Of a stretch of DNA of 64,000 nt, positions 17,809 through 63,044 are shown one piece after another. The stretch comes from an uncultured delta proteobacterium (GTDB taxonomy: Bacteria; Myxococcota_A; Polyangia; Polyangiales; Polyangiaceae). The stretch lies in the NCBI GenBank assembly GCA_963841435.1, contig CAWJCS010000003.1:896001-960000 (forward strand), read 5' to 3'. The position numbers and the translations under genes were made by a program. How positions within the stretch are numbered: position 1 is the first letter of the stretch; the number at the start of each line of letters is the position of its first letter. The notes beneath the pieces are model-generated. The model ran no database searches. It was not told the origin of the DNA and saw only the letters and a program-made list of their open reading frames with translations.

Positions 17809-18972
17809 GTGCCACCCCGCCGTCGTCTTCTCGTGAGCCACGGGCTCGTGCTGCTCGTTTCGGGCGTAACCGCCGCCTGTGCGAATCCACGCGCGCCGTC
17901 CAGCACCCAGCCGGCCGCGCTCCCCACGAAGAGCTCGACCGTCGCCGTCGAAAGAGCGCCCGCCAAAGCGAAACCAGAGCCGTCGAAGCTCGCGCCGCCC
18001 GCGCCCGTGAAGATCGAGCTCAGGGAAGTCGCGATGGGGACGAGCGTGACGTTCGTGGCGTTCACCAACGAGCGTGCCGACGAGGCCGCCGTGCGCGCCG
18101 CGATGGCGAGCGCGCTCACGCGCATGCGCGGGCTCGAAGCCGTCCTCAGCGAGTGGCGCGACGACAGCGAGATCGGCCAGTTGAACCTGCACGCGGGCGA
18201 GTGGGTTCCGATGGGCCCCGAGTCGCTCGAGGTCATCCAGAAGGGCCTGTGGGCGGGGCGGCTGTCGGGCGGCGTGTTCGACATCACGTTCCAGGCGATG
18301 AAGGACGTGTGGAAGTTCGGCACCGCGAGCGAGGCCGAGCCCCACGTTCCGACGCACAAGGAGATCGAGGCGCGCCGCCGGCTCGTGGACTATCGCAAGG
18401 TCGAGATCGACGAGGGCGCGCACGCCGTTCGCATCGGCAAGCAGCAGCAAGTCGGCCTCGGCGGCATCGCCAAGGGGTACATCGTCGACAAGGCGGCGCG
18501 CGTGCTGCGCGATGCGGGCGTCGACGCGTTTCTCGTCCAGGCCGGCGGCGATCTGTACGGCGCGGGCCGCAAGCCCGACGGCTCTCCCTGGGTGAGCGGC
18601 ATCCAGGATCCGCGCGGCGCGCCCGGGCAATTCTTTGCCACGATCGAGCTCACCGATCACGCCTTTTCGACCGCCGGCGACTACGCACGCGCCTACGTCG
18701 TCAAGGGCAAGCGCTATCACCACATCATCGATCCGCGTACGGGCTATCCGGCAACGGCGTGCCGCAGCGTGACGGTCTGGGCCCCCGACGCCTTCATCGC
18801 CGACGCGGTCGACGACATCGTCTTCATCCTCGGCCCCGAAAAGGGCATCCCGCTCGTCGAGTCACTCGACGGCGTCGGAGCGGTCATCGTCGACGAAAAG
18901 AATCACGTCACGGTGACGCGCAGGCTCGAGGGCAAGGTGCACGTCGTGTCAGCGCCGACCGACGGCATCTGA
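17809..18972 (+). CDS. apbE: FAD:protein FMN transferase (lipoprotein)
   Basis: AMGT, GGVFDIT, GGIAKGYIVD, AGGD, STAGDY, YHHIIDPRTGYP. Confidence 0.93.
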   Translation: MPPRRRLLVSHGLVLLVSGVTAACANPRAPSSTQPAALPTKSSTVAVERAPAKAKPEPSKLAPPAPVKIELREVAMGTSVTFVAFTNERADEAAVRAAMASALTRMRGLEAVLSEWRDDSEIGQLNLHAGEWVPMGPESLEVIQKGLWAGRLSGGVFDITFQAMKDVWKFGTASEAEPHVPTHKEIEARRRLVDYRKVEIDEGAHAVRIGKQQQVGLGGIAKGYIVDKAARVLRDAGVDAFLVQAGGDLYGAGRKPDGSPWVSGIQDPRGAPGQFFATIELTDHAFSTAGDYARAYVVKGKRYHHIIDPRTGYPATACRSVTVWAPDAFIADAVDDIVFILGPEKGIPLVESLDGVGAVIVDEKNHVTVTRRLEGKVHVVSAPTDGI

Positions 18973-31992: not shown

Positions 31993-32064
31993 GCGAGAAG
32001 GACATACCGCGCCTTTCGTTCCGGGGCGAGAGTCGGACGTTCGGGAGCGGTGCTACGGTTCGCC

Positions 32065-34149
32065 GTGCGCGTGTTGGCGGTGGTGCCGGCCTTCCGGGCG
32101 GAGCGGACAATCGCCGCCGTCGTCCGTGAGCTCGGCGTCGCGCTCGGCGCTGAAGCCGGGCCCGTGATCGTCGTTGACGACGGCTCGGACGACGACACCG
32201 CGCGAAATGCCGAAGCGGCCGGCGCGCTCGTCCTTCGCCACGCGAAGAACCTCGGCAAGGGCGAGGCGCTCCGCACGGGCTTCGACCGAGCACTCGTCGA
32301 AGGCGCCGACGCCGCGGTGAGCGTCAACGCCGACGGCCAACACCCGGTCGAGGAGGCCTTGCGCGTCGCCCGCCACCCTGCGAGCCGCGAAACGCTCGTG
32401 CTCGGTGTGCGAAACCTCGCCCGCGACGGCGCGCCGCGCGCGAACCGCTTCTCGAACGCGTTCTCCAACCGCTTCCTCTCCTGGTTCGGCGGTCGAAAGC
32501 TCGCGGACACGCAATGCGGCCTGCGCCGCTACCCGCTGCCCGAAGCCCTCGGGCTCGGCGCCCGAGCCAAAGGCTACGCGTTCGAGTCCGAGCTCCTCTT
32601 GCGTGCCGCGCGGCGCGGACGCCCCATCGCCGAGCTTCCCGTTCGGGTCGTCTACCCGCCCGTCGGCGAGCGCGTCTCGCACTTTCACCCCGTGCGCGAC
32701 CCGGCGCGCATCATCTATCGGGTGCTACAAACCGTGCTCCTCGTGCCGCGCGCCGGGCACTACCTAGGGCGGCTCGCGCTGGGGCTCGCCGTCACGACGC
32801 TCGCCGCCGTGGCTCTTTCACACTGGCTGCTCGCGAGGGTGCTTTCGCCCACGCCCGTCGCCGTCAAGGCGCCCGGCGGCGCCGTCGAGCACGTCTCGGC
32901 GAGCCTCGAGCGCTTCGCGGGCTCCTACGTGCTCCGCCGCGGCGCGCTGCTCCAGGTCGGGCTCGACGGCGACCCCGAGCGCATCGGCTTCGCGCAGGCG
33001 CGCCTCTTGCGCCACGAAATGCTGGAAAACGAGCATGTGCTGCTCGAGCGCTTCGGCGCCGCCGTGCCCTACCGCATCGCGCGGACCGCGCTGCTCGATC
33101 TCGCGCGCCTTCGCTATCGCTCGCTCGATCACGGCTTCTCGCCCGAGCGCCGGCGCGAGATCGCCGCGGGGGCGCTCGGCTTCCAGCCCGACCCCTACGC
33201 CGATTTCGTCCCAACCTACCAGCGCTTCGTCTTCTTGAACGCACTCTACGACATCGCCCTCTCGTTCGAAGACTCGCCGCTCGTCGGTTGCACCACGTTC
33301 GTCTTCCACGGCCCGGCCGAGCCCGAGGGCGGCGCGCTGCTCGCACGGGCCTTCGACATGGAAGTCGACCCGATCTTCAATCGAAAGAAGGCCATCTTCC
33401 TGGTGCGCGAGCCCGGCGCGATCCCGTTCGCGTCCGTAGCGTGGCCCGGCCTCGTCGGCGTCGTGAGCGGGATGAACGTCGAAGGCGTCGCGGTCGTCGT
33501 GCACGGAGGGCGAGCCGGCGAACCGGCGACGCACGGCGAGCCCGTCGTGCATGCCCTGCGTCGAGTGCTCGAGCACGCGCGCACCACGGCCGACGCCGTA
33601 CGGCTCTTCGCCGAGCGTGAGCCGCTCGTCAGCCACCTCGTCGTCGTCGCGGACGCGGCGGGAGACGCGGCCGTCATCGAGCGCGTTCCGGGCCGAAAAC
33701 CCTACGTGCGAAGGCTTCCGCCGCGCGCCGGCGTCACCAACCACTTCGAGGGGCCTTCGCGCAACGACCCCAAGAACCTGCGCGTCATCGCCGAATCGAG
33801 CACGCGCGACCGCCGCGCACGCGCCGACGAGCTCGCCGCCCGCGCCGCGGCTCCCGTGCGCCCCTCGGCGGCGCTCGCCATGCTGCGCGACCGCAGCGGC
33901 CCCGGCGACACGCCCCTGCCGCTCGGCGATCGGCGCGCCATCGACGCCCTGATCGCGACGCACGGCATCATCGCCGACACGCGCACACGCACGCTCTGGG
34001 TGAGCGAGAGCCCGCACCTGCTCGGTCGCTTCGTTGCCTTCGACCTCGAACGCCTGCTCGCCCCGGACTACGCGCCGAACGACGAGGCACTGCCGGCGTT
34101 GCCGGCGGACCCGGACGAGGCGACGCTCGCGCGAGCACGGGCAGAGTGA
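32065..34149 (+). CDS. Fusion of GT2 (DPM1-like) glycosyltransferase, TM helix and C45-family Ntn-hydrolase/acyltransferase
   Basis: VVDDGSDD, NLGKGEAL, NADGQH, DTQCGLR, FESE, SHFHPVRD; then NALYDIA, GCTTF, ARAFD, GVVSGMN, TNHF, ATHGII. Confidence 0.85.
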   Translation: MRVLAVVPAFRAERTIAAVVRELGVALGAEAGPVIVVDDGSDDDTARNAEAAGALVLRHAKNLGKGEALRTGFDRALVEGADAAVSVNADGQHPVEEALRVARHPASRETLVLGVRNLARDGAPRANRFSNAFSNRFLSWFGGRKLADTQCGLRRYPLPEALGLGARAKGYAFESELLLRAARRGRPIAELPVRVVYPPVGERVSHFHPVRDPARIIYRVLQTVLLVPRAGHYLGRLALGLAVTTLAAVALSHWLLARVLSPTPVAVKAPGGAVEHVSASLERFAGSYVLRRGALLQVGLDGDPERIGFAQARLLRHEMLENEHVLLERFGAAVPYRIARTALLDLARLRYRSLDHGFSPERRREIAAGALGFQPDPYADFVPTYQRFVFLNALYDIALSFEDSPLVGCTTFVFHGPAEPEGGALLARAFDMEVDPIFNRKKAIFLVREPGAIPFASVAWPGLVGVVSGMNVEGVAVVVHGGRAGEPATHGEPVVHALRRVLEHARTTADAVRLFAEREPLVSHLVVVADAAGDAAVIERVPGRKPYVRRLPPRAGVTNHFEGPSRNDPKNLRVIAESSTRDRRARADELAARAAAPVRPSAALAMLRDRSGPGDTPLPLGDRRAIDALIATHGIIADTRTRTLWVSESPHLLGRFVAFDLERLLAPDYAPNDEALPALPADPDEATLARARAE

Positions 34150-34168
34150 GTATTTTCGGCTCTGAAAG

Positions 34169-35365
34169 CGTGATCTGGTCGTCCAAGACTCCGAGGTCGT
34201 GGTGGGCGCGGGCTTTGATGGTTTTTTCCTGCTGGTCTTCGCTGAAAGCTCTCGCGACCCTCGCAATCCGCAAGCAAACACGCGCCCGGCCTCGCCGGTT
34301 CCTTTGCTTGGGTGGTGGTCTCTCGAGGCGATCGTGATCTGGTCGTCCAAGACTCCGAGGTCGTGGTGGGCGCGGGCTTTGATGGTTTTTTCCTGCTGGT
34401 CTTCGCTGAAAGCTCTCGCGACCCTCGCAATCCGCAAGCAAACACGCGCCCGGCCTCGCCGGTTCCTTTGCTTGGGTGGTGGTCTCTCGAGGCGATCGTG
34501 ATCTGGTCGTCCAAGACTCCGAGGTCGTGGTGGGCGCGGGCTTTGATGGTTTTTTCCTGCTGGTCTTCGCTGAAAGCTCTCGCGACCCTCGCAATCCGCA
34601 AGCAAACACGCCCCCGGCCTCGCCGGTTCCTTTGCTTGGGTGGTGGTCTCTCGAGGCAATCGTGATCTGGTCGTCCAAGACTCCGAGGTCGTGGTGGGCG
34701 CGGGCTTTGATGGTTTTTTCCTGCTGGTCTTCGCTGAAAGCTCTCGCGACCCTCGCAATCCGCAAGCAAACACGCGCCCGGCCTCGCCGGTTCCTTTGCT
34801 TGGGTGGTGGTCTCTCGAGGCGATCGTGATTTGGTCTTCCAAGACTCCGAGGTCGTGGTGGGCGCGGGCTTTGATGGTTTTTTCCTGCTGGTCTTCGCTG
34901 AAAGCTCTCGCGACCCTCGCAATCCGCAAGCAAACACGCCCCCGGCCTCGCCGGTTCCTTTGCTTGGGTGGTGGTCTCTCGAGGCAATCGTGATTTGGTC
35001 GTCCAAGACTCCGAGGTCGTGGTGGGCGCGGGCTTTGATGGTTTTTTCCTGCTGGTCTTCGCTGAAAGCTCTCGCGACCCTCGCAATCCGCAAGCAAACA
35101 CGCGCCCGGCCTCGCCGGTTCCTTTGCTTGGGTGGTGGTCTCTCGAGGCGATCGTGATCTGGTCTTCCAAGACTCCGAGGTCGTGGTGGGCGCGGGCTTT
35201 GATGGTTTTTTCCTGCTGGTCTTCGCTGAAAGCTCTCGCGACCCTCGCAATCCGCAAGCAAACACGCGCCCGGCCTCGCCGGTTCCTTTGCTTGGGTGGT
35301 GGTCTCTCGAGGCAATCGTGATCTGGTCTTCCAAGACTCCGAGGTCGTGGTGGGCGCGGGCTTTG
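34169..35365. repeat. Tandem array of 164-bp units: 7 complete plus a 49-bp partial copy
   Basis: Units start at 34169, 34333, 34497, 34661, 34825, 34989, 35153 and 35317; only 4 variable sites; no spacers. Confidence 0.97.
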
Positions 35366-35378
35366 CCCGCGCTTGTTT
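35354..35378 (+). terminator. Terminator-like hairpin closing the array
   Basis: GCGCGGGC-TTT-GCCCGCGC followed by TTGTTT. Confidence 0.6.
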
Positions 35379-35429
35379 CGACCTGGTAGGTTTGACGGAT
35401 CCGTGCGGCTGGGACGGCTCCGTCCGGGC

Positions 35430-36528
35430 TCAGCGCTCTAGGCCGATCCAGGCGCCGCCGCAGGCGAGGCCGAGCGCGATGGGCGCCACGGCGAGGGCGA
35501 AGAGCACGCCGATCGGCGCCGCGAGCCACAGCATGCCGACGAGCAGGCCCAGCGTGAGCGCTGCCGCGAGCGCTGGCTCGAGGAGCCCCTGCCCCGAGCT
35601 CGCCCGCGCCACGAGGTACCCGGACAGCGGGAAGGCGGCGAGCACGGCTGCACCGAGCAGCACGAGGGGGCCCGAAGAGCGCACGTCGGCCTCGTCAGCG
35701 AGCGAAAAATCGATCCCCAGCCGATTGCCGGCCACGACCGATGCCGAAACGAGCACGACGACGAGCCCGAGCGTCGCGAACGCGCCGAGCACGATCCAGC
35801 GCAGCATCAGCGGTCGCTCGCGCTGCACGAGCCGCGCGCGAACTTCCTCGATCGACGGCGGCTCGAGCGTGTGCACCGAATGGACCGCACCCTCGCCGCG
35901 CAGCGCCATGAACGTGCCGAGCGCCATGAAGAGCAGCATCGGGGCCGTCACGACGAGAAGCCCGGGCCCGCGTCCCCAGAGGATGTGGTCGTAGAGCCCG
36001 TGCAGCAGCATCGACACGAGCCAGGCCACGGAGAACCAGCGGTCGTGCCGGTGCACCGCGCCGAGCGCATAGCCCCAGACCCCCGCGAAGAACAGCGACG
36101 CAGGAGCGGAGAGCAGGAGGCGCGCGAAGTCAACGGCGTCGCCCGCTGGAAGGGGGAGCAGCATCGCCTCGGCCGCGGAGAACCCCGCAGCAGCCGCCGC
36201 CGCATAGAACAATCCCTGCCGTGGGCTCTCGACGCGCCGCCGACGGTACAGGGTCCAGACGACGAGCACCTTGACGCCCTCCTCGAGCGGCGCCGCGAGG
36301 AGGAAGGTCGCGAGCAAGGCGCCGCTCGCTCCCGAGCGCGTCACCTCGAAGCTTAGCTCCGCGAAGCCGAGCACCCACTGCTCGACCTCGATCGTGAGCG
36401 CCCCCGCGAGCGCGCCCCCCACGGCCACGAGCAACCCCAGCCGACGCGAGAATCCGCGCGCGCCCGCGTGCGCGGAGGTAGATCAGCAACGCAAGCAGCA
36501 GGGGCAGGGCTGCAGCGAAGACCCGCAT
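35430..36528 (-). CDS. PrsW-family intramembrane metalloprotease; +1 frameshift at about 36451
   Basis: APLEEGVK, GFSAAE, LHGLYD; many TM segments; the N-terminus lies in the adjacent frame. Confidence 0.85.
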
Positions 36529-37278: not shown

Positions 37279-38148
37279 TTAGCGGAAGCGGACAGTTTCG
37301 GGAGTCCTCGTGTCGCCGAGCTCCTCGCACACGGCGCGGAGCTCCGGTTTCACGGCGCCAGTCCAGGCGAGATCGTCGGGGGTTTCGTCGAGCGGTACGT
37401 CGAGGCACAGGGTTGCAAGCTCGCGGTAGAGCGCCGCCGCCTCGCGGTGGTCCCTAAGCGACTGGGCGAGTGCCTGCTTGCCCCTGAGCTCGACGCCCCA
37501 GGCGTCCGGGTCGTCCTCGATGCGCTCGAGGGACTCGAAGCGTGCGAGCAGCGTGCTCGCCGCCTTCTTTCCCCAGCGTGGCACCCCGGGGATGCCGTCG
37601 GCGGCGTCACCCACGAGCGCGAGAAAATCCGGGATCGAGCGCGGGCTCACGCCGAACTTGGCGACGACACCGGCCTCGTCGAGGGTCACGTTCTTGTAGC
37701 GATCGTAGAGCACGACGCGACCATCTCGCACGCACTGCGTGAGGTCCTTGTCGGGCGTGCAGAGCAGCACCTGCTCCACGCGCGGATCGGCCGCCGCGCG
37801 GGCCGCGAACGTCGCGAGCGCATCGTCGGCCTCGAACTCGATCATCGACCAGGTGACGATGCCGAGGGCGCGCGTGGCGCGTTCGGCGAGGGGGAACTGT
37901 GAGAACAGCGCGGGGTCGATGCCCTCGCCGGTCTTGTAGCCGCCGAAGAGCCGGTTGCGAAACGATTCGATGACGGTGTCGAATGCCACGGCGACGTGTG
38001 TCACGGCCGCAGACGCCACGAAGCCGGCGAGGCTCCTCAAGAGCACCCGGGACGCTCCCACCTCCTGCCCCCCGGGACCCGCGCTGGCCGGAGCGCCGTA
38101 GAACGCGCGAAAAAGCTCGTAGGTTCCGTCAATCAGGTGGATCCGCAT
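37279..38148 (-). CDS. 5'-3' exonuclease / flap endonuclease (stand-alone PolA N-terminal-like domain)
   Basis: LIDGTYELFRAFY, YK, FEADD, DKDL, LVGDAADGIPGV. Confidence 0.92.
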   Translation of the reverse strand: MRIHLIDGTYELFRAFYGAPASAGPGGQEVGASRVLLRSLAGFVASAAVTHVAVAFDTVIESFRNRLFGGYKTGEGIDPALFSQFPLAERATRALGIVTWSMIEFEADDALATFAARAAADPRVEQVLLCTPDKDLTQCVRDGRVVLYDRYKNVTLDEAGVVAKFGVSPRSIPDFLALVGDAADGIPGVPRWGKKAASTLLARFESLERIEDDPDAWGVELRGKQALAQSLRDHREAAALYRELATLCLDVPLDETPDDLAWTGAVKPELRAVCEELGDTRTPETVRFR

Positions 38149-59545: not shown

Positions 59546-60961
59546 TCAGGCTAGCTGCGTGAGCGGCCCCGTGTCGGGGTTGACGTTGCCGACGCTCGTC
59601 GTGCTCGACATGCCCATGAGCTGGCAGATCGACACGAGGAGCTTGGCCGACGCTTCCTTGTTCACGTCGAGAAAGCGTCCCGTCGAAAGGCCGAGCGAGC
59701 CGCCGCCCGCCATCACGGCGCACCAGGGCTGCATGGCGTGCGACGTCGTCCCGAGCTCGCGCGCCCAGACGACGAGCGTGTTGTCGAGCAGCGAGCTGCC
59801 GCCCTCGTCGATCGCGTCCATCGCCTGGAGCATCGCGACGATCTGTTCGCAATACCAGGTGTCGATGGCCATGAGCTTGTCGCGGTTGTCGGCGTTCTGA
59901 TGCGACATGGTGTGGTGCGCCACCGTGTGGCCGAGCCAGGTGTGCGTCACGTTGCTGAAGCCGCAGCTCAGCTGCACGCTCATCACACGGGTGAGATCGC
60001 AGGCGAAGACGTGCGGCACCAGGCCGAGCATCGCGCCGACCTCCGCCGGGAAATTCGCGTTGTTGGCGGAGCGTCCACTCGCCTCGGGGCGAGCCGGCAG
60101 GGTGCATCCGACCACGGGAGCGGGCGGCATGGCCTTCACGCGTGCCTCGATGGCGCGGAGCCCCGCGAGGTGCGCGTCGATCTTCGGGTACTCTTCCGAG
60201 CTTACCTTGGTGCGTAGCCGGTCGAGGTCGCTCATCACCAGATCGAGAATGCTCGTCTGCTCGAGCTCTTTTTGCACGGCCGCGGGATCGACCATCGGCG
60301 GCTCGCCCGTCGACGGCATCACGCCCGCGAAAAGCCGGTCGAAAGCGGCTTGCGGGTTCGTTTCCGGGTGCAGCGGCTGGTCGTCGCCCTTGTAGATGAC
60401 GCGCGTCACGCTCGTGGGGTTGCCGCACTGCACGCCGAGCTCGACGGTGCGATAGGACGTCTCGAGCATGGGATCCGAAGGCGAGCGCAGGTAAGGCAGC
60501 CCGTCGCCGTACGCCGCTGCCACGATCTGATCGACCGAGGGGCCGCTGCCCCAGCCCGTGCGATGCCCATTGCCGCCGTCGAAGTCGGCTCCGTTGCCGG
60601 GATCCTTGAGCTTTGCTCCCGTGAACATCCCGGCGCTGCCGAAGGCGTGCTGCTCGCCCGCTCCGGTTGCGCTCATCTTGAGGCCCCAGGGGATCACGAT
60701 CTTTTGCTGGAGCGGTGCGAGCGGCTGGTGGATCGGGTGCAGCGTGAACGCCGTCTCGCTTCCCTGGGGCTTCCAGTCGATGGGGCCCGCGGAGCTGTCG
60801 GAGTCGGCCGTGCCGTCGGGCGTGAAGATCAAGAGCAGTCGCTTCGGCCGTGCCAGCTCCTGACCGCTCGCGTTGAGCAGCGGAACGAACGGCGCGGCGG
60901 CCGTGCTGATACCCAGGCTCTTCAGAAAGCCGCGACGGGAGAGGAAGGGGCGGGATCTCAT
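59546..60961 (-). CDS. DUF1552 family protein with Tat signal
   Basis: LSRRGFL, PKRLL, SVDQIVA, NPQAAFDRLF, FACDLTRV, LLDNTLV. Confidence 0.88.
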   Translation of the reverse strand: MRSRPFLSRRGFLKSLGISTAAAPFVPLLNASGQELARPKRLLLIFTPDGTADSDSSAGPIDWKPQGSETAFTLHPIHQPLAPLQQKIVIPWGLKMSATGAGEQHAFGSAGMFTGAKLKDPGNGADFDGGNGHRTGWGSGPSVDQIVAAAYGDGLPYLRSPSDPMLETSYRTVELGVQCGNPTSVTRVIYKGDDQPLHPETNPQAAFDRLFAGVMPSTGEPPMVDPAAVQKELEQTSILDLVMSDLDRLRTKVSSEEYPKIDAHLAGLRAIEARVKAMPPAPVVGCTLPARPEASGRSANNANFPAEVGAMLGLVPHVFACDLTRVMSVQLSCGFSNVTHTWLGHTVAHHTMSHQNADNRDKLMAIDTWYCEQIVAMLQAMDAIDEGGSSLLDNTLVVWARELGTTSHAMQPWCAVMAGGGSLGLSTGRFLDVNKEASAKLLVSICQLMGMSSTTSVGNVNPDTGPLTQLA

Positions 60962-60973
60962 CGTGATTCCGTA

Positions 60974-62812
60974 TTAATTGCCGATCGCGCGCACGTGGCG
61001 GAACGCGGGGGATAGGACGATGGACGTGATGAGGTCGCGCACGTTGCCAGTCGTGGCGAAGCTCTCGTGAATCGCGCGTAGCGCGCAGCCGTCGTCGGTG
61101 GATTCCATGCGACCGAGCGAGTAGCGGAACCACTGGTTGGCGACGCAGTCACTCACCGTGCGGCTCGCCGCGAGGCGCTGCCCGAGCTCGACGCCGCCGA
61201 CGTAGGGGACCTCGAGGTCGGGGCCGGCGTCGTAGATGACGCCCGTCGCGTCGATCGTTTCGCCCCCTTCGGTGGTGCGGTACTTGCCGATGCCGTCGTA
61301 GTTTTCGAGCGACAGCCCAATCGGGTCCATCTGCGTGTGGCAGCCGCCGCACGTGGGGTCGGACTCGTGGGCCACGAAGCGGTCGCGCGCCGTGGGGCCG
61401 AGCGAGGGCGGCAGCGGCGACGCCATCACGTCGAGCGGCGGCGGCTCGATGGGCTGGCACAGGATGTTCTCCCGCACGGCGATGCCGCGATGAACGGGCG
61501 AAGGGGAGTCCCCACGGTAGTGCTTCACGAGAAAGGCAGCCTGCGTGAGCAGCCCGCCGCGCTCGGTGGGATCGAGCTCGACGCGCGTGCCGGGGGTAAA
61601 GCCGGGCGGCTCGGCAAGACCGTAGGTCCCGAACAGCGGGCCCTCGGGGAAGGAGAAGCTCGCCGTGAACAGCGTGCTCAACAGGCCGTCGCCGCTTCGG
61701 ACGACGTAATCGGTGAAGGTCGTCGTCTCGTCGATCATCGCGGTCGCAACGTCCGGCTGCGTCTGGCCGAGCGTGCCGAACTCGTTCGCGTTGATGGCGA
61801 GCCACTGCAAGTGGAACGACGGCACGGAGTCGCGCGCCTTCGGGTCGGCGAGCATGCGGGCGACCTGGGCGTCGAGCGTCGCGTCGTCGTCGAGCGCGCC
61901 CCCGGCGGCGAGATCGAAGAGCGCCTGGTCGGGCATCGTGTCCCACATGAAGTACGAGAGGCGCGAGGCGAGCTCGTACGACGTGAGCGGTTCCGGCTTG
62001 GCGGACGGCGCGCCGCTCGCGCCGATGTCGGCGTGGTAGAGGAAGAACGGCGATTGGAGCATCGCTTCCACGACGAGGCGGAAGCCGTTCGTGGCGTCGC
62101 TCCCCCCGACGGCGAAGAGGGCCGCGTAGGCGTCGACCTCGGACGGCTCGAGCGGACGGCGGTAGGCTTTGAGCCCGAATTCGGCGATGAAATTTCGAAC
62201 GCACGCATCGCCCGTCGCAAGGTCGCAAGGCGAAAGCTCGGCGATGCGGCTCTTCGCGCCGACGGCCAGCGCCTGTGCCGCTTCCTGGAGCTGCTGAACC
62301 ACGAGATCGGTGATGGGCGAGATGGCGTTGCTCGTGAACGGACCCACGGTTTCGTCGGGGGAGATGCCCGCGGCGGGGGTTCCCGTCGCGCCCAACAGAT
62401 CGCGCACGGTGTGCTCGTACTGTGTTCGCGTGAGCCTCGCGACACGGCTCCGGCCGACGCGGAGCTGATCGCCCGTCTCGCTATCGCATTGGTCGGCGGG
62501 CGGATCCACGATACCGCCGCTGCCCGACGCGCCGGCGCTGCCGCCGGTGCCACCGCCCGTGCCGCCCGTGCTCGCGCCGCCTGTCGCCGACACCGAGCCG
62601 CCAGTGCCACCGGATGCCGAGCTGCCACCGGATGCCGAGCTGCCGCCCGTGGCACCCGTGCTGCTCGTGGCCCCGCTGCCCGTCGCGCCATCGGAGGTCG
62701 AGTCACTACTGATGGTGGCCTGACAACCGACGAGCGAAAGCGCGCTCAGCACGCCGAACAGCGTGAGACGCTGAGCGGCGAACGCGGCGCGGATGGGTCG
62801 CTCGTTTGCCAT
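60974..62812 (-). CDS. DUF1592/DUF1588/DUF1595/DUF1585 lipoprotein with CxxCH
   Basis: Lipobox LVGC, RLTRTQY, AYRRP, LQSPFFLY, YELASRLSY, SPVHRG, CGGCH. Confidence 0.9.
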   Translation of the reverse strand: MANERPIRAAFAAQRLTLFGVLSALSLVGCQATISSDSTSDGATGSGATSSTGATGGSSASGGSSASGGTGGSVSATGGASTGGTGGGTGGSAGASGSGGIVDPPADQCDSETGDQLRVGRSRVARLTRTQYEHTVRDLLGATGTPAAGISPDETVGPFTSNAISPITDLVVQQLQEAAQALAVGAKSRIAELSPCDLATGDACVRNFIAEFGLKAYRRPLEPSEVDAYAALFAVGGSDATNGFRLVVEAMLQSPFFLYHADIGASGAPSAKPEPLTSYELASRLSYFMWDTMPDQALFDLAAGGALDDDATLDAQVARMLADPKARDSVPSFHLQWLAINANEFGTLGQTQPDVATAMIDETTTFTDYVVRSGDGLLSTLFTASFSFPEGPLFGTYGLAEPPGFTPGTRVELDPTERGGLLTQAAFLVKHYRGDSPSPVHRGIAVRENILCQPIEPPPLDVMASPLPPSLGPTARDRFVAHESDPTCGGCHTQMDPIGLSLENYDGIGKYRTTEGGETIDATGVIYDAGPDLEVPYVGGVELGQRLAASRTVSDCVANQWFRYSLGRMESTDDGCALRAIHESFATTGNVRDLITSIVLSPAFRHVRAIGN

Positions 62813-63044
62813 CACGTGGTCCTCGAAATCGACAGTGCCTCGGGCCCGTGGAAGCAGGCCGAGCTGAAACGATTAAGTTACTATGATTATACCGCTCCAG
62901 CAAGTCGCCGCGGCGCTCGCGCCGCCACTGAATCGTTCTTCTGTGACCGCAAGTCAGAAGTGCAAAGCTCGGGACGGTCAACCACTCTTGAACACGATGT
63001 CGGATGGCAGCGCACACGATGGGGGCGCGGGACCGCAAGCTCGT

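What the first reader, a model, noticed from the sequence alone, without database searches (positions are those of the whole stretch)
34169..35378. Intergenic array of 7.3 near-identical 164-bp structured units capped by a terminator-like hairpin
Seen: the array fills the gap between two convergent genes (GT2-C45 and PrsW). The unit is about 62% GC (101/164 by hand count), lower than the flanking genes. Each unit holds a nested hairpin, CAAGCAAA..CCGGC-CTC-GCCGG..TTTGCTTG, and a second possible pairing, GCTTT..AAAGC. The last partial unit supplies the left arm of a perfect GCGCGGGC-TTT-GCCCGCGC-TTGTTT hairpin. Four dimorphic sites (gatC/Ttgg, gtcG/Ttcc, cacgcG/Cccc, ggcG/Aat) are shuffled among copies, which points to recombination or conversion between units. 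There are no spacers and no cas or transposase gene in the window. Inference: a multimeric structured ncRNA, an amplified non-autonomous element, or a protein-binding DNA array.
Basis: partly seen in the sequence, partly recalled or inferred. Interest (0 to 1): 0.75.

Follow-up and report, generated by a model that had tools for sequence, protein, structure and literature searches.

The report
Tandemly amplified dispersed intergenic repeat element
The 1.2-kb array is real, non-coding DNA: one member of a repeat family scattered between genes in many Polyangiaceae (myxobacterial) genomes that has been copied head-to-tail seven times here, which makes it an ordinary kind of bacterial repeat, though the family itself seems undescribed.

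Summary
There are 7.3 copies of a 164-bp unit, 98% alike, at 34169-35365, between convergent GT2/C45 and PrsW genes. Four dimorphic sites and a perfect hairpin at 35354-35372 are also present.

The unit is not unique. Read on the minus strand, it belongs to a dispersed, modular repeat family. The family has a 24-nt core (GTCTTGGAAGACCAGATCACGATC), a CCGG-CGAGG-CCGG hairpin about 28 nt further on and, in the window's subtype, a GC-rich hairpin in front.

Of the 121 stretches it returned, 73 were family copies from 26 assemblies, and 71 of the 73 are titled Polyangiaceae, Polyangiales or Myxococcales.

- Copies are intergenic and lie in either orientation.
- None of the 81 neighbouring ORFs scanned is a transposase.
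- Some copies form CTAG-bounded foldback (MITE-like) pairs.
- Other copies form short tandem arrays of 133-182 bp, 2-3 copies each.

A structured-RNA reading finds no support: no Rfam match, folding z about 0, no consensus structure and no sigma-70 promoter. The open reading frame through the array is spurious.

Best reading: a BOX/MITE-like non-autonomous element amplified by unequal recombination. Its function is unproven. Three of the four dimorphic sites sit in the core, which is unexplained.

The parts
34169..35365 (-). Tandem array, 7.3 copies of a 164-bp unit. Family orientation is the minus strand.
   Evidence: TRF; unit dissection; 8 hits of the family profile, all on the minus strand.
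35253..35378 (-). First, complete family element on the minus strand. It runs: 5' hairpin, CCACCACGACC, core, then hairpin 2.
   Evidence: Architecture matches class C members in other genomes. blastn gives 67% identity over 190 nt to L048 and 77% over 111 nt to L118.
35354..35372 (.). Perfect hairpin GCGCGGGC-TTT-GCCCGCGC. On the plus strand it is followed by TTGTTT (35373-35378). On the minus strand it is the family's 5' hairpin.
   Evidence: The fold of this region has z = -6.54.
35314..35337 (-). Family core motif (minus strand GTCTTGGAAGACCAGATCACGATT). It recurs every 164 bp at 35150-35173, 34986-35009, 34822-34845, 34658-34681, 34494-34517 and 34330-34353. The copy at 34169-34189 is truncated.
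   Evidence: Only the core at 35150-35173 carries the full family consensus. Three of the four dimorphic sites lie in this motif.
35270..35282 (.). Hairpin 2, CCGGC-CTC-GCCGG (plus strand), followed by TTCCTTTGCT. It occurs once per unit, also at 34286, 34450, 34614, 34778, 34942 and 35106.
   Evidence: Terminator-like scan: 8 sites against a mean of 2.4 in shuffles. In the family it is conserved mostly as sequence.
33968..35101 (-). Spurious predicted ORF (P0001, 377 aa) running through the array into the antisense of the GT2 gene.
   Evidence: GC by codon position is 0.62/0.62/0.59, against 0.78/0.51/0.88 and 0.76/0.50/0.90 for the flanking genes.
32050..34149 (+). Flanking gene: glycosyltransferase family 2 fused to an AAT (C45-type) domain.
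   Evidence: Pfam PF00535 and PF03417.
35430..36434 (-). Flanking gene: PrsW-family intramembrane protease. The array starts 52 nt after its stop codon.
   Evidence: Pfam PF13367.

Best explanation
The array is non-coding DNA. It is one member of a dispersed, modular intergenic repeat family of Polyangiaceae-like myxobacteria that has been amplified in place to seven full copies and one partial copy.

A family element is about 190 nt long. In the window's subtype it consists of, in order:
- a GC-rich hairpin;
- a CCA(C/A)GAC block;
- a 24-nt core with two small dyads (GTCTT-GG-AAGAC and GATC-AC-GATC);
- a short CCGG-CGAGG-CCGG hairpin;
- a GTCGCG block;
- an A-rich tail.

It encodes nothing and has no transposase of its own. 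In kind it resembles the composite BOX elements or MITEs of other bacteria.

Shown here: the array, family membership, dispersal in other genomes, intergenic location in either orientation, absence of nearby transposases, and recurrent short tandem arrays of the same module elsewhere.

Inferred:
- The locus began with two adjacent copies. The periodic stretch is 7 x 164 + 49 bp, which implies a pre-existing 49-bp direct repeat.
- It grew by unequal homologous recombination or replication slippage. Conversion or recurrent mutation then shuffled the four variant sites.
- The copies are not individually functional RNA genes.

Any effect on the cell is probably a by-product. On the plus strand the array places a hairpin with a T-rich tail every 164 bp, and a strong hairpin at its end, between two convergent genes. 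This could pause or stop read-through from the GT2 gene.
For: **The array is real and young.** 98% identity, 7.3 copies.

**The unit belongs to a wider family.**
- phmmer of the ORF through the array found, besides itself, four weak hits (E 7e-8 to 4e-4). They carry the same peptide motifs in shifted frames, which means the same DNA core and hairpin. Motif spacings are 54-58 residues (about 162-174 nt) in P0002, P0004 and P0005, and 104 residues between the two motifs found in P0003.
73 of the 121 score at least 40 bits with the module profile (91 module hits). They come from 26 assemblies. 60 are titled Polyangiaceae, 9 Myxococcales, 2 Polyangiales and 2 'Pseudomonadota bacterium'.
- The window element aligns over its whole length with members elsewhere: 67% over 190 nt and 65% over 219 nt.

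**Location and context of family copies.**
- 65 of 67 module hits are intergenic. Excluding the window, the arrangements are: 9 between convergent genes, 14 co-directional antisense, 11 co-directional sense and 5 between divergent genes.
- 0 of 81 scanned neighbour ORFs carry a transposase, integrase, RT or HUH domain. The 81 are the nearest of 155 candidate ORFs. Neighbours include rpoD, rpoN, nusA, greA, pilQ, nuo, gatB and def.

**Related arrangements elsewhere.**
- Nine loci hold convergent inverted pairs. Most are 300-340 bp long (two are shorter, about 170 and 250 bp) and most end in CTAG.
- Tandem copies of the module occur in L033 (182 bp x 2.0), L078 (133 x 3.0), L095 (156 x 1.8) and L045 (two copies 172 bp apart, cut by the contig end).

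**The array is non-coding.** The unit length is not a multiple of 3. Codon-position GC is flat at 0.62/0.62/0.59. No real homologues were found.
Against: - Mobility is not shown. I found no empty site, no clear target-site duplication for the window's subtype and no autonomous partner among the 73 loci.
- The window unit has no terminal inverted repeats.
- Dispersal within the window's own genome could not be tested.
- The exact conservation of the 20-nt core across 26 assemblies is partly a product of searching with that pattern. Even so, it could reflect selection for a function that this reading does not supply.
- The 5' hairpins differ completely in sequence between subfamilies yet stay hairpins (mean z -2.12; 12 of 23 with z < -2). 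That looks like selection on structure.
- Three of the four variant sites fall in the core (my binomial estimate P about 0.011). Simple neutral amplification does not predict this.
- Copy number rests on one assembly.
Confidence: 0.6

Rival explanations
1. Protein-binding DNA array. The dyad-symmetric 24-bp core is the recognition site of a host protein, such as a regulator, a nucleoid-associated protein or a recombinase. On this reading the family was spread or retained because of that binding, and the array provides seven to eight sites spaced 164 bp apart, acting as a sink, an insulator or a structural element.
For: - The core contains two short dyads, GTCTT-GG-AAGAC and GATC-AC-GATC (sequence).
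- In diverged partner copies the blocks TCTTGG and AGATCNCGATCG stay conserved while the bases between them vary.
- Copies work in either orientation relative to genes. That suits a DNA site better than an RNA.
- Many copies lie beside housekeeping genes.
Against: - No candidate binding protein is linked to the copies (0 of 81 neighbours recurrent or DNA-transposing).
- Within this array the core is the most variable part. Three of the four dimorphic sites lie in it, and only 1 of 7 complete cores has the family consensus. That is not expected for sites under selection for binding.
- The apparent invariance of the core across genomes is inflated by the exact-pattern search.
Confidence: 0.15
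2. Array of small-RNA genes, or one multimeric non-coding RNA that is processed into units of about 164 nt.
For: - Each unit carries a short GC hairpin followed by a T-rich tail on the plus strand: 7 unit sites plus the terminal hairpin, against a mean of 2.4 sites in shuffles.
- Class C members have a stable 5' hairpin whose sequence varies while the pairing is kept.
- The purine-rich tract before hairpin 2 averages 3.5 A in 8 nt, against about 1.9 expected from the modules' 24% A. This gives a T-rich tail on the opposite strand family-wide.
Against: - No Rfam match at the gathering threshold or at E <= 10 in the array, nor at E <= 0.1 in 20 family loci.
- Unit folding z is +0.03 and -0.26. 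The module downstream of the core has mean z -0.31, with 1 of 23 below -2.
- RNAalifold finds 6 and 2 pairs in the two alignments, with 0 compensatory changes.
- Hairpin 2 is conserved mainly as sequence, and a subfamily of about 26 copies lacks the pairing.
- There are 0 sigma-70-like promoter sites in 33900-35700, and the unit has no TA dinucleotide on either strand.
- The ECF-like GGAAC-N18-GTT motif occurs in 1 of 92 modules, the window's own.
- There is no orientation bias relative to genes.
Confidence: 0.1
3. Locus-specific neutral VNTR. On this reading a random piece of this intergenic region was duplicated by slippage and has no relatives elsewhere.
For: - Within the 64-kb window there is no other copy.
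- There are no matches in the plasmid or phage collections.
- Near-identity of the copies indicates recent expansion.
Against: The unit is homologous over about 190 nt to elements at 73 loci in 26 other assemblies. Tandem arrays of the same module recur elsewhere.
Confidence: 0.03
4. Coding sequence. The array would encode a repeat protein on the minus strand, where all three frames are open, so that three DNA units make one 164-residue protein repeat.
For: - There is no stop codon in any minus-strand frame of the unit.
- A gene caller predicted a 377-aa protein here.
- Four other database ORFs run through related arrays.
Against: - Openness follows from the unit having no TA dinucleotide and no TCA. 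TA is rare in this genome (0.9% of positions, about 1.4 expected per unit).
- Codon-position GC is flat at 0.62/0.62/0.59, against 0.78/0.51/0.88 in real genes.
- The ORF runs on into the antisense of the GT2 gene.
- The only 'homologues' are ORFs across the same DNA repeat in shifted frames.
Confidence: 0.02
5. Assembly artefact. The true locus would hold one or two copies, inflated by the assembler.
For: Nothing positive. The copy number rests on one assembly, and reads are not available here.
Against: - Copies differ at four sites in six different combinations. A simple artefactual expansion would not create this.
- The contig is 1.55 Mb long.
- Related arrays of 2-3 copies exist in independent assemblies.
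Confidence: 0.05

Closest known systems
BOX elements of Streptococcus pneumoniae: a composite boxA - (boxB)n - boxC interspersed repeat. Source: PMC3049150, of which I read passages from the Background, Results and Discussion.
   Same: - Both are modular, dispersed, intergenic and non-coding.
- Both have a module that occurs in a variable number of tandem copies. The paper says that number changes by unequal crossover.
- Both have open reading frames on both strands that get mis-annotated.
- Neither has a transposase of its own.
- BOX sizes of 67-637 bp are of the same order.
   Different: - There is no sequence similarity, and the host phylum differs.
- The repeated module here is 133-182 bp rather than the short boxB (about 45 bp is my recollection, not from a call).
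- The window array of 7 copies and 1.2 kb is larger than the BOX range quoted.
- The paper reports TIRs and target duplications for BOX. Neither was found for the window's subtype.
MITEs. Examples: 'BrickBuilt' of Porphyromonas gingivalis, a MITE that contains a minisatellite (PMC4596501, abstract read), and Correia elements of Neisseria (recalled, not from a call).
   Same: - Both are small, non-autonomous, multi-copy and always intergenic.
- An internal tandem repeat sits within a dispersed element.
- The class B relatives here have long inverted arms and CTAG (or TA) at both ends.
   Different: - The window unit has no inverted termini and no visible target duplication.
- The tandem unit is the whole module (164 bp), not a 23-nt minisatellite.
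- No IS with matching ends was found among the 73 loci.
Bacterial non-coding tandem repeats ('satellites') described by Subirana and Messeguer (PMC8161180, abstract read).
   Same: Both are intergenic head-to-tail repeats without spacers. For both, proposed roles are small RNAs or nucleoid-protein binding, and both roles are unproven.
   Different: Those arrays have a constant unit size (52 or 20-21 nt in Bacillus) with variable sequence. Here the sequence core is conserved, the period varies (133-182 bp), and single dispersed copies outnumber arrays.
REP/BIME and ERIC elements of enterobacteria (recalled from general knowledge, not from a call).
   Same: All are extragenic, hairpin-forming and high-copy. 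They lie in either orientation, often in 3' regions of operons, and are clustered in mosaics.
   Different: REPs are palindromes of about 35 bp with a conserved GTAG and a dedicated RAYT transposase. No such gene or motif was seen here. The element here is about 190 nt long with a non-palindromic conserved core.

Membership tests
Dispersed Polyangiaceae module family (defined here) | 24-nt core GTCTTGGAAGACCAGATCNCGATC followed after about 28 nt by a CCGG-N5-CCGG hairpin | tested here: met
   All 7 complete window units score 51-71 bits with the family profile. The window element aligns over 190 nt with L048.
Dispersed Polyangiaceae module family (defined here) | Class C 5' module: GC-rich hairpin followed by CCA(C/A)GAC, 8-10 nt before the core | tested here: met
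   Present in the first copy only (35354-35372 plus CCACCACGACC). Internal copies keep only the 3' arm.
MITE (non-autonomous DNA transposon) | Terminal inverted repeats | tested here: not met
   The window unit and array have no inverted termini. Only the class B relatives in other genomes form inverted pairs.
MITE (non-autonomous DNA transposon) | Target-site duplication | tested here: inconclusive
   Most class B copies have CTAG (or TA) at both ends, but no empty site was available for comparison. Nothing comparable flanks the window array.
MITE (non-autonomous DNA transposon) | Many dispersed copies in one genome | tested here: inconclusive
   Met in other genomes: at least 12 loci in JAICTZ01 and at least 10 in JBDTJC01.
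MITE (non-autonomous DNA transposon) | Autonomous IS with matching ends | tested here: not met
   0 of 81 neighbour ORFs are transposases. The one 1.7-kb module pair (L056) encloses a DUF1552 gene. Only 73 loci were seen, not whole genomes.
BOX-like composite interspersed repeat | Modular build with a module present in variable tandem copy number at different loci | tested here: met
   Three alternative 5' modules share the same core module. The module is tandem x1.8 to x3.0 at L033, L078 and L095, two copies at L045 (cut by the contig end), and x7.3 in the window.
BOX-like composite interspersed repeat | Sequence homology to boxA/B/C | not tested
   No BOX sequence was on hand. The different phylum and GC content make homology implausible, so the likeness is one of kind only.
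Tandem small-RNA gene array / known RNA family | Match to a curated RNA family | tested here: not met
   Rfam 15 gave 0 matches at gathering thresholds in the window. The best match in the array had E 0.43-0.76 with bit scores well under cut-off. Nothing matched the module in 20 family loci.
Tandem small-RNA gene array / known RNA family | Own promoter and terminator in each unit | tested here: not met
   0 promoter-like sites, and no TA dinucleotide in the unit. A weak terminator-like hairpin occurs in each unit on the plus strand only.
Tandem small-RNA gene array / known RNA family | Conserved secondary structure supported by covariation | tested here: not met
   RNAalifold found 0 compensatory pairs in 23 and in 52 sequences. 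Unit z is about 0. Only the 5' hairpin is significantly stable.
CRISPR array | Short repeats separated by unique spacers; cas genes nearby | tested here: not met
   Units abut without spacers. No Cas family was found among the 41 ORFs scanned.
Locus-specific VNTR / minisatellite | Unit sequence confined to the locus | tested here: not met
   Homologous elements occur at 73 loci in 26 assemblies.
Type III toxin-antitoxin RNA array (ToxI-like) | Repeat array directly upstream of, and co-oriented with, a toxin endoribonuclease gene | tested here: not met
   The array lies between the 3' ends of two convergent genes, GT2/C45 and PrsW. Its units are 164 bp; the roughly 36-nt ToxI unit length is my recollection.

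The most novel reading that the evidence does not exclude
The family may not be junk. On this reading it is a host-maintained functional element of Polyangiaceae whose near-invariant 24-nt core is a recognition site, for a DNA-binding or recombination protein or as the seed of a small RNA. The window array would then be a seven-fold sink or decoy, or a phase-variable element.

Two observations fit this reading. First, variation within the array concentrates in the core. Two of the changes are C-to-T at the cytosines of its two GATC sites, which suggests the core is a site of enzymatic activity, such as methylation, nicking or conversion. Second, independent arrays of a similar period (133-182 bp) recur in other genomes, which hints at a built-in amplification mechanism rather than random slippage.
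Probability: 0.15. Interest if true: 0.7.

Novelty: new member of a known kind. Interest (0 to 1): 0.4.

Why it matters
Three practical points follow for genome annotation.
- The 377-aa 'protein' predicted across the array is not a gene.
- The 'terminator cap' is part of a repeat element.
- The 1.2-kb gap between the GT2/C45 and PrsW genes is filled by one amplified element, not by a novel RNA locus.

The wider point is that Polyangiaceae genomes carry a modular interspersed repeat family that I could not find described. An exact search for the core string found 0 papers. Searches on Sorangium or myxobacteria with repeats, MITEs or small RNAs found nothing relevant.

Such families are useful in three ways:
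- as strain-typing markers, since the array is a ready-made VNTR;
- as a cause of assembly breaks in metagenome bins, since many copies lie at contig ends;
- as possible modulators of transcription next to housekeeping genes such as rpoD, nusA and tuf.

If the conserved core proves to be a protein or RNA recognition site, it would define a new regulatory or recombination signal in an understudied, natural-product-rich group.

Tried and rejected
1. **ECF-sigma promoter in each unit.** GGAAC-N18-GTT occurs on the minus strand of all 7 complete units, with only 2 other matches in the window against 1.5-3.3 expected. Only 1 of 92 family modules has it, the window's own. I treat it as chance.

2. 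**Array flanks as degenerate unit remnants.** The local alignment scores of the right and left flanks are reached by 487 of 500 and 198 of 500 shuffles. Rejected.

3. **Deep orthologous conservation at the MoxR-DUF58 locus (L019 vs L020/L025).** The MoxR proteins are only 46.6% identical and L019 has no DUF58 gene. Not shown. The three rpoD-adjacent copies (L003, L023, L037) come from closely related genomes whose whole intergenic region is alike, so they say little about constraint.

4. **An autonomous element.** The one module pair 1.7 kb apart (L056) encloses a DUF1552 gene, not a transposase.

5. **Consensus RNA structure.** RNAalifold on 23 class C elements and on 52 hairpin-2 regions gave 6 and 2 pairs with no compensatory change. 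Before the second run I dropped 7 of 59 mis-anchored rows (L073:7999, L074, L004, L107, L110, L030, L020). By eye, some members pair a purine-rich tract with a T-rich tract around hairpin 2, as the window does, but not in a common register.

6. **Hairpin 2 covariation.** 86 of 92 outer pairs are Watson-Crick. Nearly all are the same C-G, with only about 4 compensatory variants. About 26 copies (the CTGACCGAACAG type) lack the pairing.

7. **Plasmid and phage collections.** No match.

8. **Protein searches across the array ORF.** Near lengths found only the ORF itself. Shorter lengths found only P0004.

10. **Literature.** The searches found no description of this family.
Full report

Yes. Tandem Repeats Finder reports one outstanding array at 34169-35365: period 164, 7.3 copies, 98% matches, no indels, score 2324. 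Cutting the region into units gives seven full copies and a 49-bp eighth. The consensus is 61.6% GC (101/164), against 70.6% for the window.

There are exactly four dimorphic positions: unit position 7 (C/T), 13 (G/T), 116 (G/C) and 162 (G/A). Their combinations differ from copy to copy.

After GGGCTTTG the last copy runs into unique sequence that completes the perfect hairpin GCGCGGGC-TTT-GCCCGCGC (35354-35372), followed by TTGTTT.

The array fills the gap between two convergent genes:
- a Glycos_transf_2 + AAT (C45-type) gene at 32050-34149 (+);
- a PrsW-family protease gene at 35430-36434 (-).

I scanned 41 of 42 candidate ORFs of the window against Pfam. None is a transposase, integrase or Cas protein, and 15 of the 41 had no Pfam match.

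**2. Is the unit a structured RNA?**

The tests do not support it.
- Rfam 15 gives nothing at gathering thresholds in the window. Within the array only chance-level matches appear (best E 0.43-0.76, bit scores far under cut-off).
- The unit folds no better than dinucleotide shuffles in the best phase of either strand: plus -59.9 kcal/mol, z +0.03; minus -51.8 kcal/mol, z -0.26.
- The consensus scan finds 0 sigma-70-like promoters in 33900-35700. The unit has no TA dinucleotide at all, so neither strand can carry a TANNNT -10 box.
- What does stand out is a short hairpin, CCGGC-CTC-GCCGG, followed by TTCCTTTGCT on the plus strand of every unit. With the terminal hairpin this makes 8 terminator-like sites, against a mean of 2.4 in shuffles.
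- A GGAAC-N18-GTT motif on the minus strand of each unit looked like an ECF-sigma promoter. It occurs in only 1 of 92 family modules, the window's own, so I treat it as chance.

**3. Is it coding?**

All three minus-strand frames are open, and a gene caller predicted a 377-aa protein (P0001, 33968-35101, minus strand). Several points argue against a real gene.
- The openness follows from the unit lacking TA and TCA.
- 164 is not a multiple of three.
- GC by codon position is flat at 0.62/0.62/0.59, where the flanking genes show 0.78/0.51/0.88 and 0.76/0.50/0.90.
- The ORF continues into the antisense of the GT2 gene.

It is an annotation artefact.

**4. The unit is not unique**

That artefactual ORF proved useful as a probe, because it reads the unit in all three frames. 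phmmer against 1.84 billion representative proteins found the ORF itself and four weak hits: P0002-P0005, E 7e-8 to 4e-4.

These four carry the same peptide motifs as the window's three frames, LGRPDHD / LEDQITI / SWKTRSRS and KPARP / RRGRAR / TGEAG, but in shifted frames. The shared thing is therefore DNA: a core near TGGAAGACCAGATCACGATC and a CCGGCGAGGCCGG hairpin. In P0002, P0004 and P0005 the motifs lie 54-58 residues apart, about 162-174 nt. In P0003 the two motifs found lie 104 residues apart.

A profile built from the clear members scores at least 40 bits in 73 of the 121 loci, with 91 module hits. The other 48 split into 33 with no profile hit and 15 weak ones. Those 48 are mostly TGGACGACC matches inside genes of unrelated phyla, a common VDDQIAI-type peptide.

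By record title the 73 family loci are 60 Polyangiaceae, 9 'Myxococcales bacterium', 2 Polyangiales and 2 'Pseudomonadota bacterium' MAGs. They come from 26 assemblies, with up to 12 loci in one assembly.

The family's distribution and the window's gene content both suggest a Polyangiaceae-like myxobacterium. The gene content includes a Ser/Thr kinase with a cNMP domain and DUF1552 with DUF1585-1595 family genes. That is an inference only.

**5. Anatomy of the family**

The family orientation is the window's minus strand. All members share:
- the core GTCTTGGAAGACCAGATCNCGATC;
- about 28 nt;
- the hairpin CCGG-CGAGN-CCGG;
- GCGC;
- often a GTCGCG block and an A-rich tail about 125-145 nt after the core.

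Upstream of the core there are three alternative modules.
- Class A has a long conserved sequence containing CCCGGAACCAAAACGAGC.
- Class B starts with CTAG(N)CTCGAGTTGGGCGG.
- Class C has a GC-rich hairpin followed by CCA(C/A)GAC.

The window belongs to class C. On the minus strand its first copy reads GCGCGGGC-AAA-GCCCGCGC-CCACCACGACC-TCGGA-GTCTTGGAAGACC... The internal copies keep only its 3' arm.

The whole window element aligns with members elsewhere:
- L048: 67% over 190 nt;
- L045: 65% over 219 nt;
- L118: 77% over 111 nt.

The class C 5' hairpins differ entirely in sequence between subfamilies yet remain hairpins, often with three-base loops such as GAA, GCA or AGA. The region has mean z -2.12, with 12 of 23 below -2. 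The 100 nt downstream have mean z -0.31, with 1 of 23 below -2.

Hairpin 2 is kept mainly as sequence. 86 of 92 outer pairs are Watson-Crick, almost all the same C-G, with about 4 compensatory variants. About 26 copies of the CTGACCGAACAG type lack the pairing. RNAalifold finds no consensus structure in either alignment.

**6. How the copies sit in genomes**

- With a crude GC3-based gene caller, 65 of 67 module hits are intergenic.
- Leaving out the window, arrangements relative to flanking genes are 9 convergent, 14 co-directional antisense, 11 co-directional sense and 5 divergent. There is no orientation preference.
- I scanned 81 neighbour ORFs, the nearest of 155 candidates. None has a transposase, integrase, reverse-transcriptase or HUH domain.
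- The neighbours are ordinary, often housekeeping, genes: rpoD (three related MAGs, same position), rpoN, nusA, greA, pilQ, nuoD/G, gatB, def, nrdB and gltA.
- One copy lies between fusA and tuf (L105, read by eye). One lies next to RNase P RNA (L092).
- Many loci hold a second, diverged copy on the other strand. Nine are convergent pairs. Most are 300-340 bp long (two are shorter, about 170 and 250 bp) and most end in CTAG. These are foldback, MITE-like elements. Four class A loci hold divergent pairs; aligning three of them, beside rpoD, shows a large palindromic intergenic block.
- Direct tandem copies of the module also recur: L033 (182 bp x 2.0), L078 (133 x 3.0), L095 (156 x 1.8) and L045 (two copies 172 bp apart, cut by the contig end).
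- 31 short-period repeats lie within 300 bp of modules.

The window's 7.3 copies are the largest array seen.

**7. What it most likely is and how it arose**

The array is a locally amplified member of a dispersed, modular, non-autonomous intergenic repeat family.

The periodic stretch is 7 x 164 + 49 bp, not a whole number of units. That means the ancestral locus already had a 49-bp direct repeat spaced 164 bp apart, that is, two adjacent module copies, as at L033, L045 and L095. Unequal homologous recombination or slippage between such copies then expands the array. This is the mechanism the literature gives for the variable boxB arrays of pneumococcal BOX elements (PMC3049150, passages read).

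These steps are inferred, not shown. I tested whether the array's flanks are decayed unit remnants. They are not distinguishable from chance.

**8. What does not fit neatly**

Three of the four dimorphic sites (162, 7, 13) lie inside the 24-nt core, which spans the unit junction. Only 0.59 of 4 would be expected there, and my binomial estimate gives P(>=3) about 0.011. Only one of seven complete cores (35150-35173) has the full family consensus.

Sites 162 and 7 are both C-to-T changes at the cytosine of the core's two GATC sites, one on each strand. All four allele combinations occur for each pair of the three core sites, though they are only 6-15 bp apart. Recurrent mutation at a hot spot, or very short conversion tracts, would explain this. 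Methylated cytosine is a guess.

The pattern argues against each copy's core being under selection for binding. It also hints that something acts on the core.

The conserved but sequence-variable 5' hairpins, and the recurrence of arrays of similar period in independent genomes, keep open a functional or mechanistic role that I could not test.

**9. Comparison and novelty**

In kind, this is closest to three things:
- composite interspersed repeats such as BOX;
- MITEs that contain internal tandem repeats, such as BrickBuilt (abstract);
- bacterial non-coding 'satellites' (abstract).

It fails two defining MITE tests for the window's subtype: it has no inverted termini and no autonomous partner was found. 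It also fails every test for a known RNA family, for CRISPR and for a locus-specific VNTR.

I found no description of the family:
- 0 papers contain the core string;
- searches on Sorangium or myxobacteria with repetitive elements, MITEs, small RNAs or tandem repeats returned nothing relevant.

These searches cover only the open-access library held here. I file the finding as a new member of a known kind, of moderate interest.

Noticed in passing
window 34169-35337 (cores at 34330-34353, 34494-34517, 34658-34681, 34822-34845, 34986-35009, 35150-35173, 35314-35337): Three of the array's four dimorphic sites fall inside the family's 24-nt core. Two of them are C-to-T changes at the cytosines of the core's two GATC sites, one per strand. 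All allele combinations occur among sites 6-15 bp apart. Only one of the 7 complete cores keeps the family consensus.
   Followed up: partly
window 34277-35286, minus strand, once per unit: GGAAC-N18-GTT, the shape of an ECF (SigH/SigE/SigR-type) promoter, overlaps hairpin 2 in all 7 complete units. It is absent from the other 91 family modules examined, so it is probably chance.
   Followed up: yes
window 33968-35101 (-): A gene caller's 377-aa protein (P0001) runs through the array and into the antisense of the GT2 gene. Flat codon-position GC shows it is not a gene.
   Followed up: yes
L040:7729-8048, L018:7742-8049, L069:656-972, L100:24-341, L103:279-591, L088:29-345, L091:31-338, L013:7983-8236, L074:7980-8149: Foldback elements made of two inverted family modules. 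Most are 300-340 bp long and most are bounded by CTAG on both sides (L013 and L074 are shorter, about 250 and 170 bp). They look like MITEs with a TA or CTAG target, but no matching transposase was seen.
   Followed up: partly
L001:8051-8194, L033:8234-8311, L110:192-282, L062:7161-7502 and others: Short-period tandem repeats (for example 24 bp x 6.0, 66 bp x 5.1) lie directly beside family modules. 31 such arrays sit within 300 bp of a module, so these intergenic regions are generally repeat-prone.
   Followed up: partly
L003:1400-2260, L023:7700-8790, L037:7300-8260: Downstream of rpoD in three related MAGs, the whole 0.8-1 kb intergenic region is a large palindromic block. It is built from two divergent class A modules with a variable, repeat-rich centre.
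   Followed up: partly
L092:490-620 (-); L105 (whole locus): One family copy lies next to an RNase P RNA gene (Rfam RF00010, 78.9 bits, truncated by the locus end). Another lies between fusA and tuf, opposite to their direction of transcription; I read that one by eye from the translated flanks.
   Followed up: no
window 59546-62872 (-); L056:6498-9539 (-): The window holds a DUF1552 (HXXSHH) gene next to a DUF1585/1587/1588/1592/1595 gene. In L056 a family module lies between two tandem DUF1552 paralogues and another just downstream of the pair. The gene pair is typical of planctomycete- and myxobacteria-like genomes (that typicality is my recollection).
   Followed up: no
window 18184-18209 (-) and 38102-38127 (-): These are the only two other GGAAC-N18-GTT matches in the window. 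The second lies inside the start of the 5'-3' exonuclease gene. Neither was examined further.
   Followed up: no
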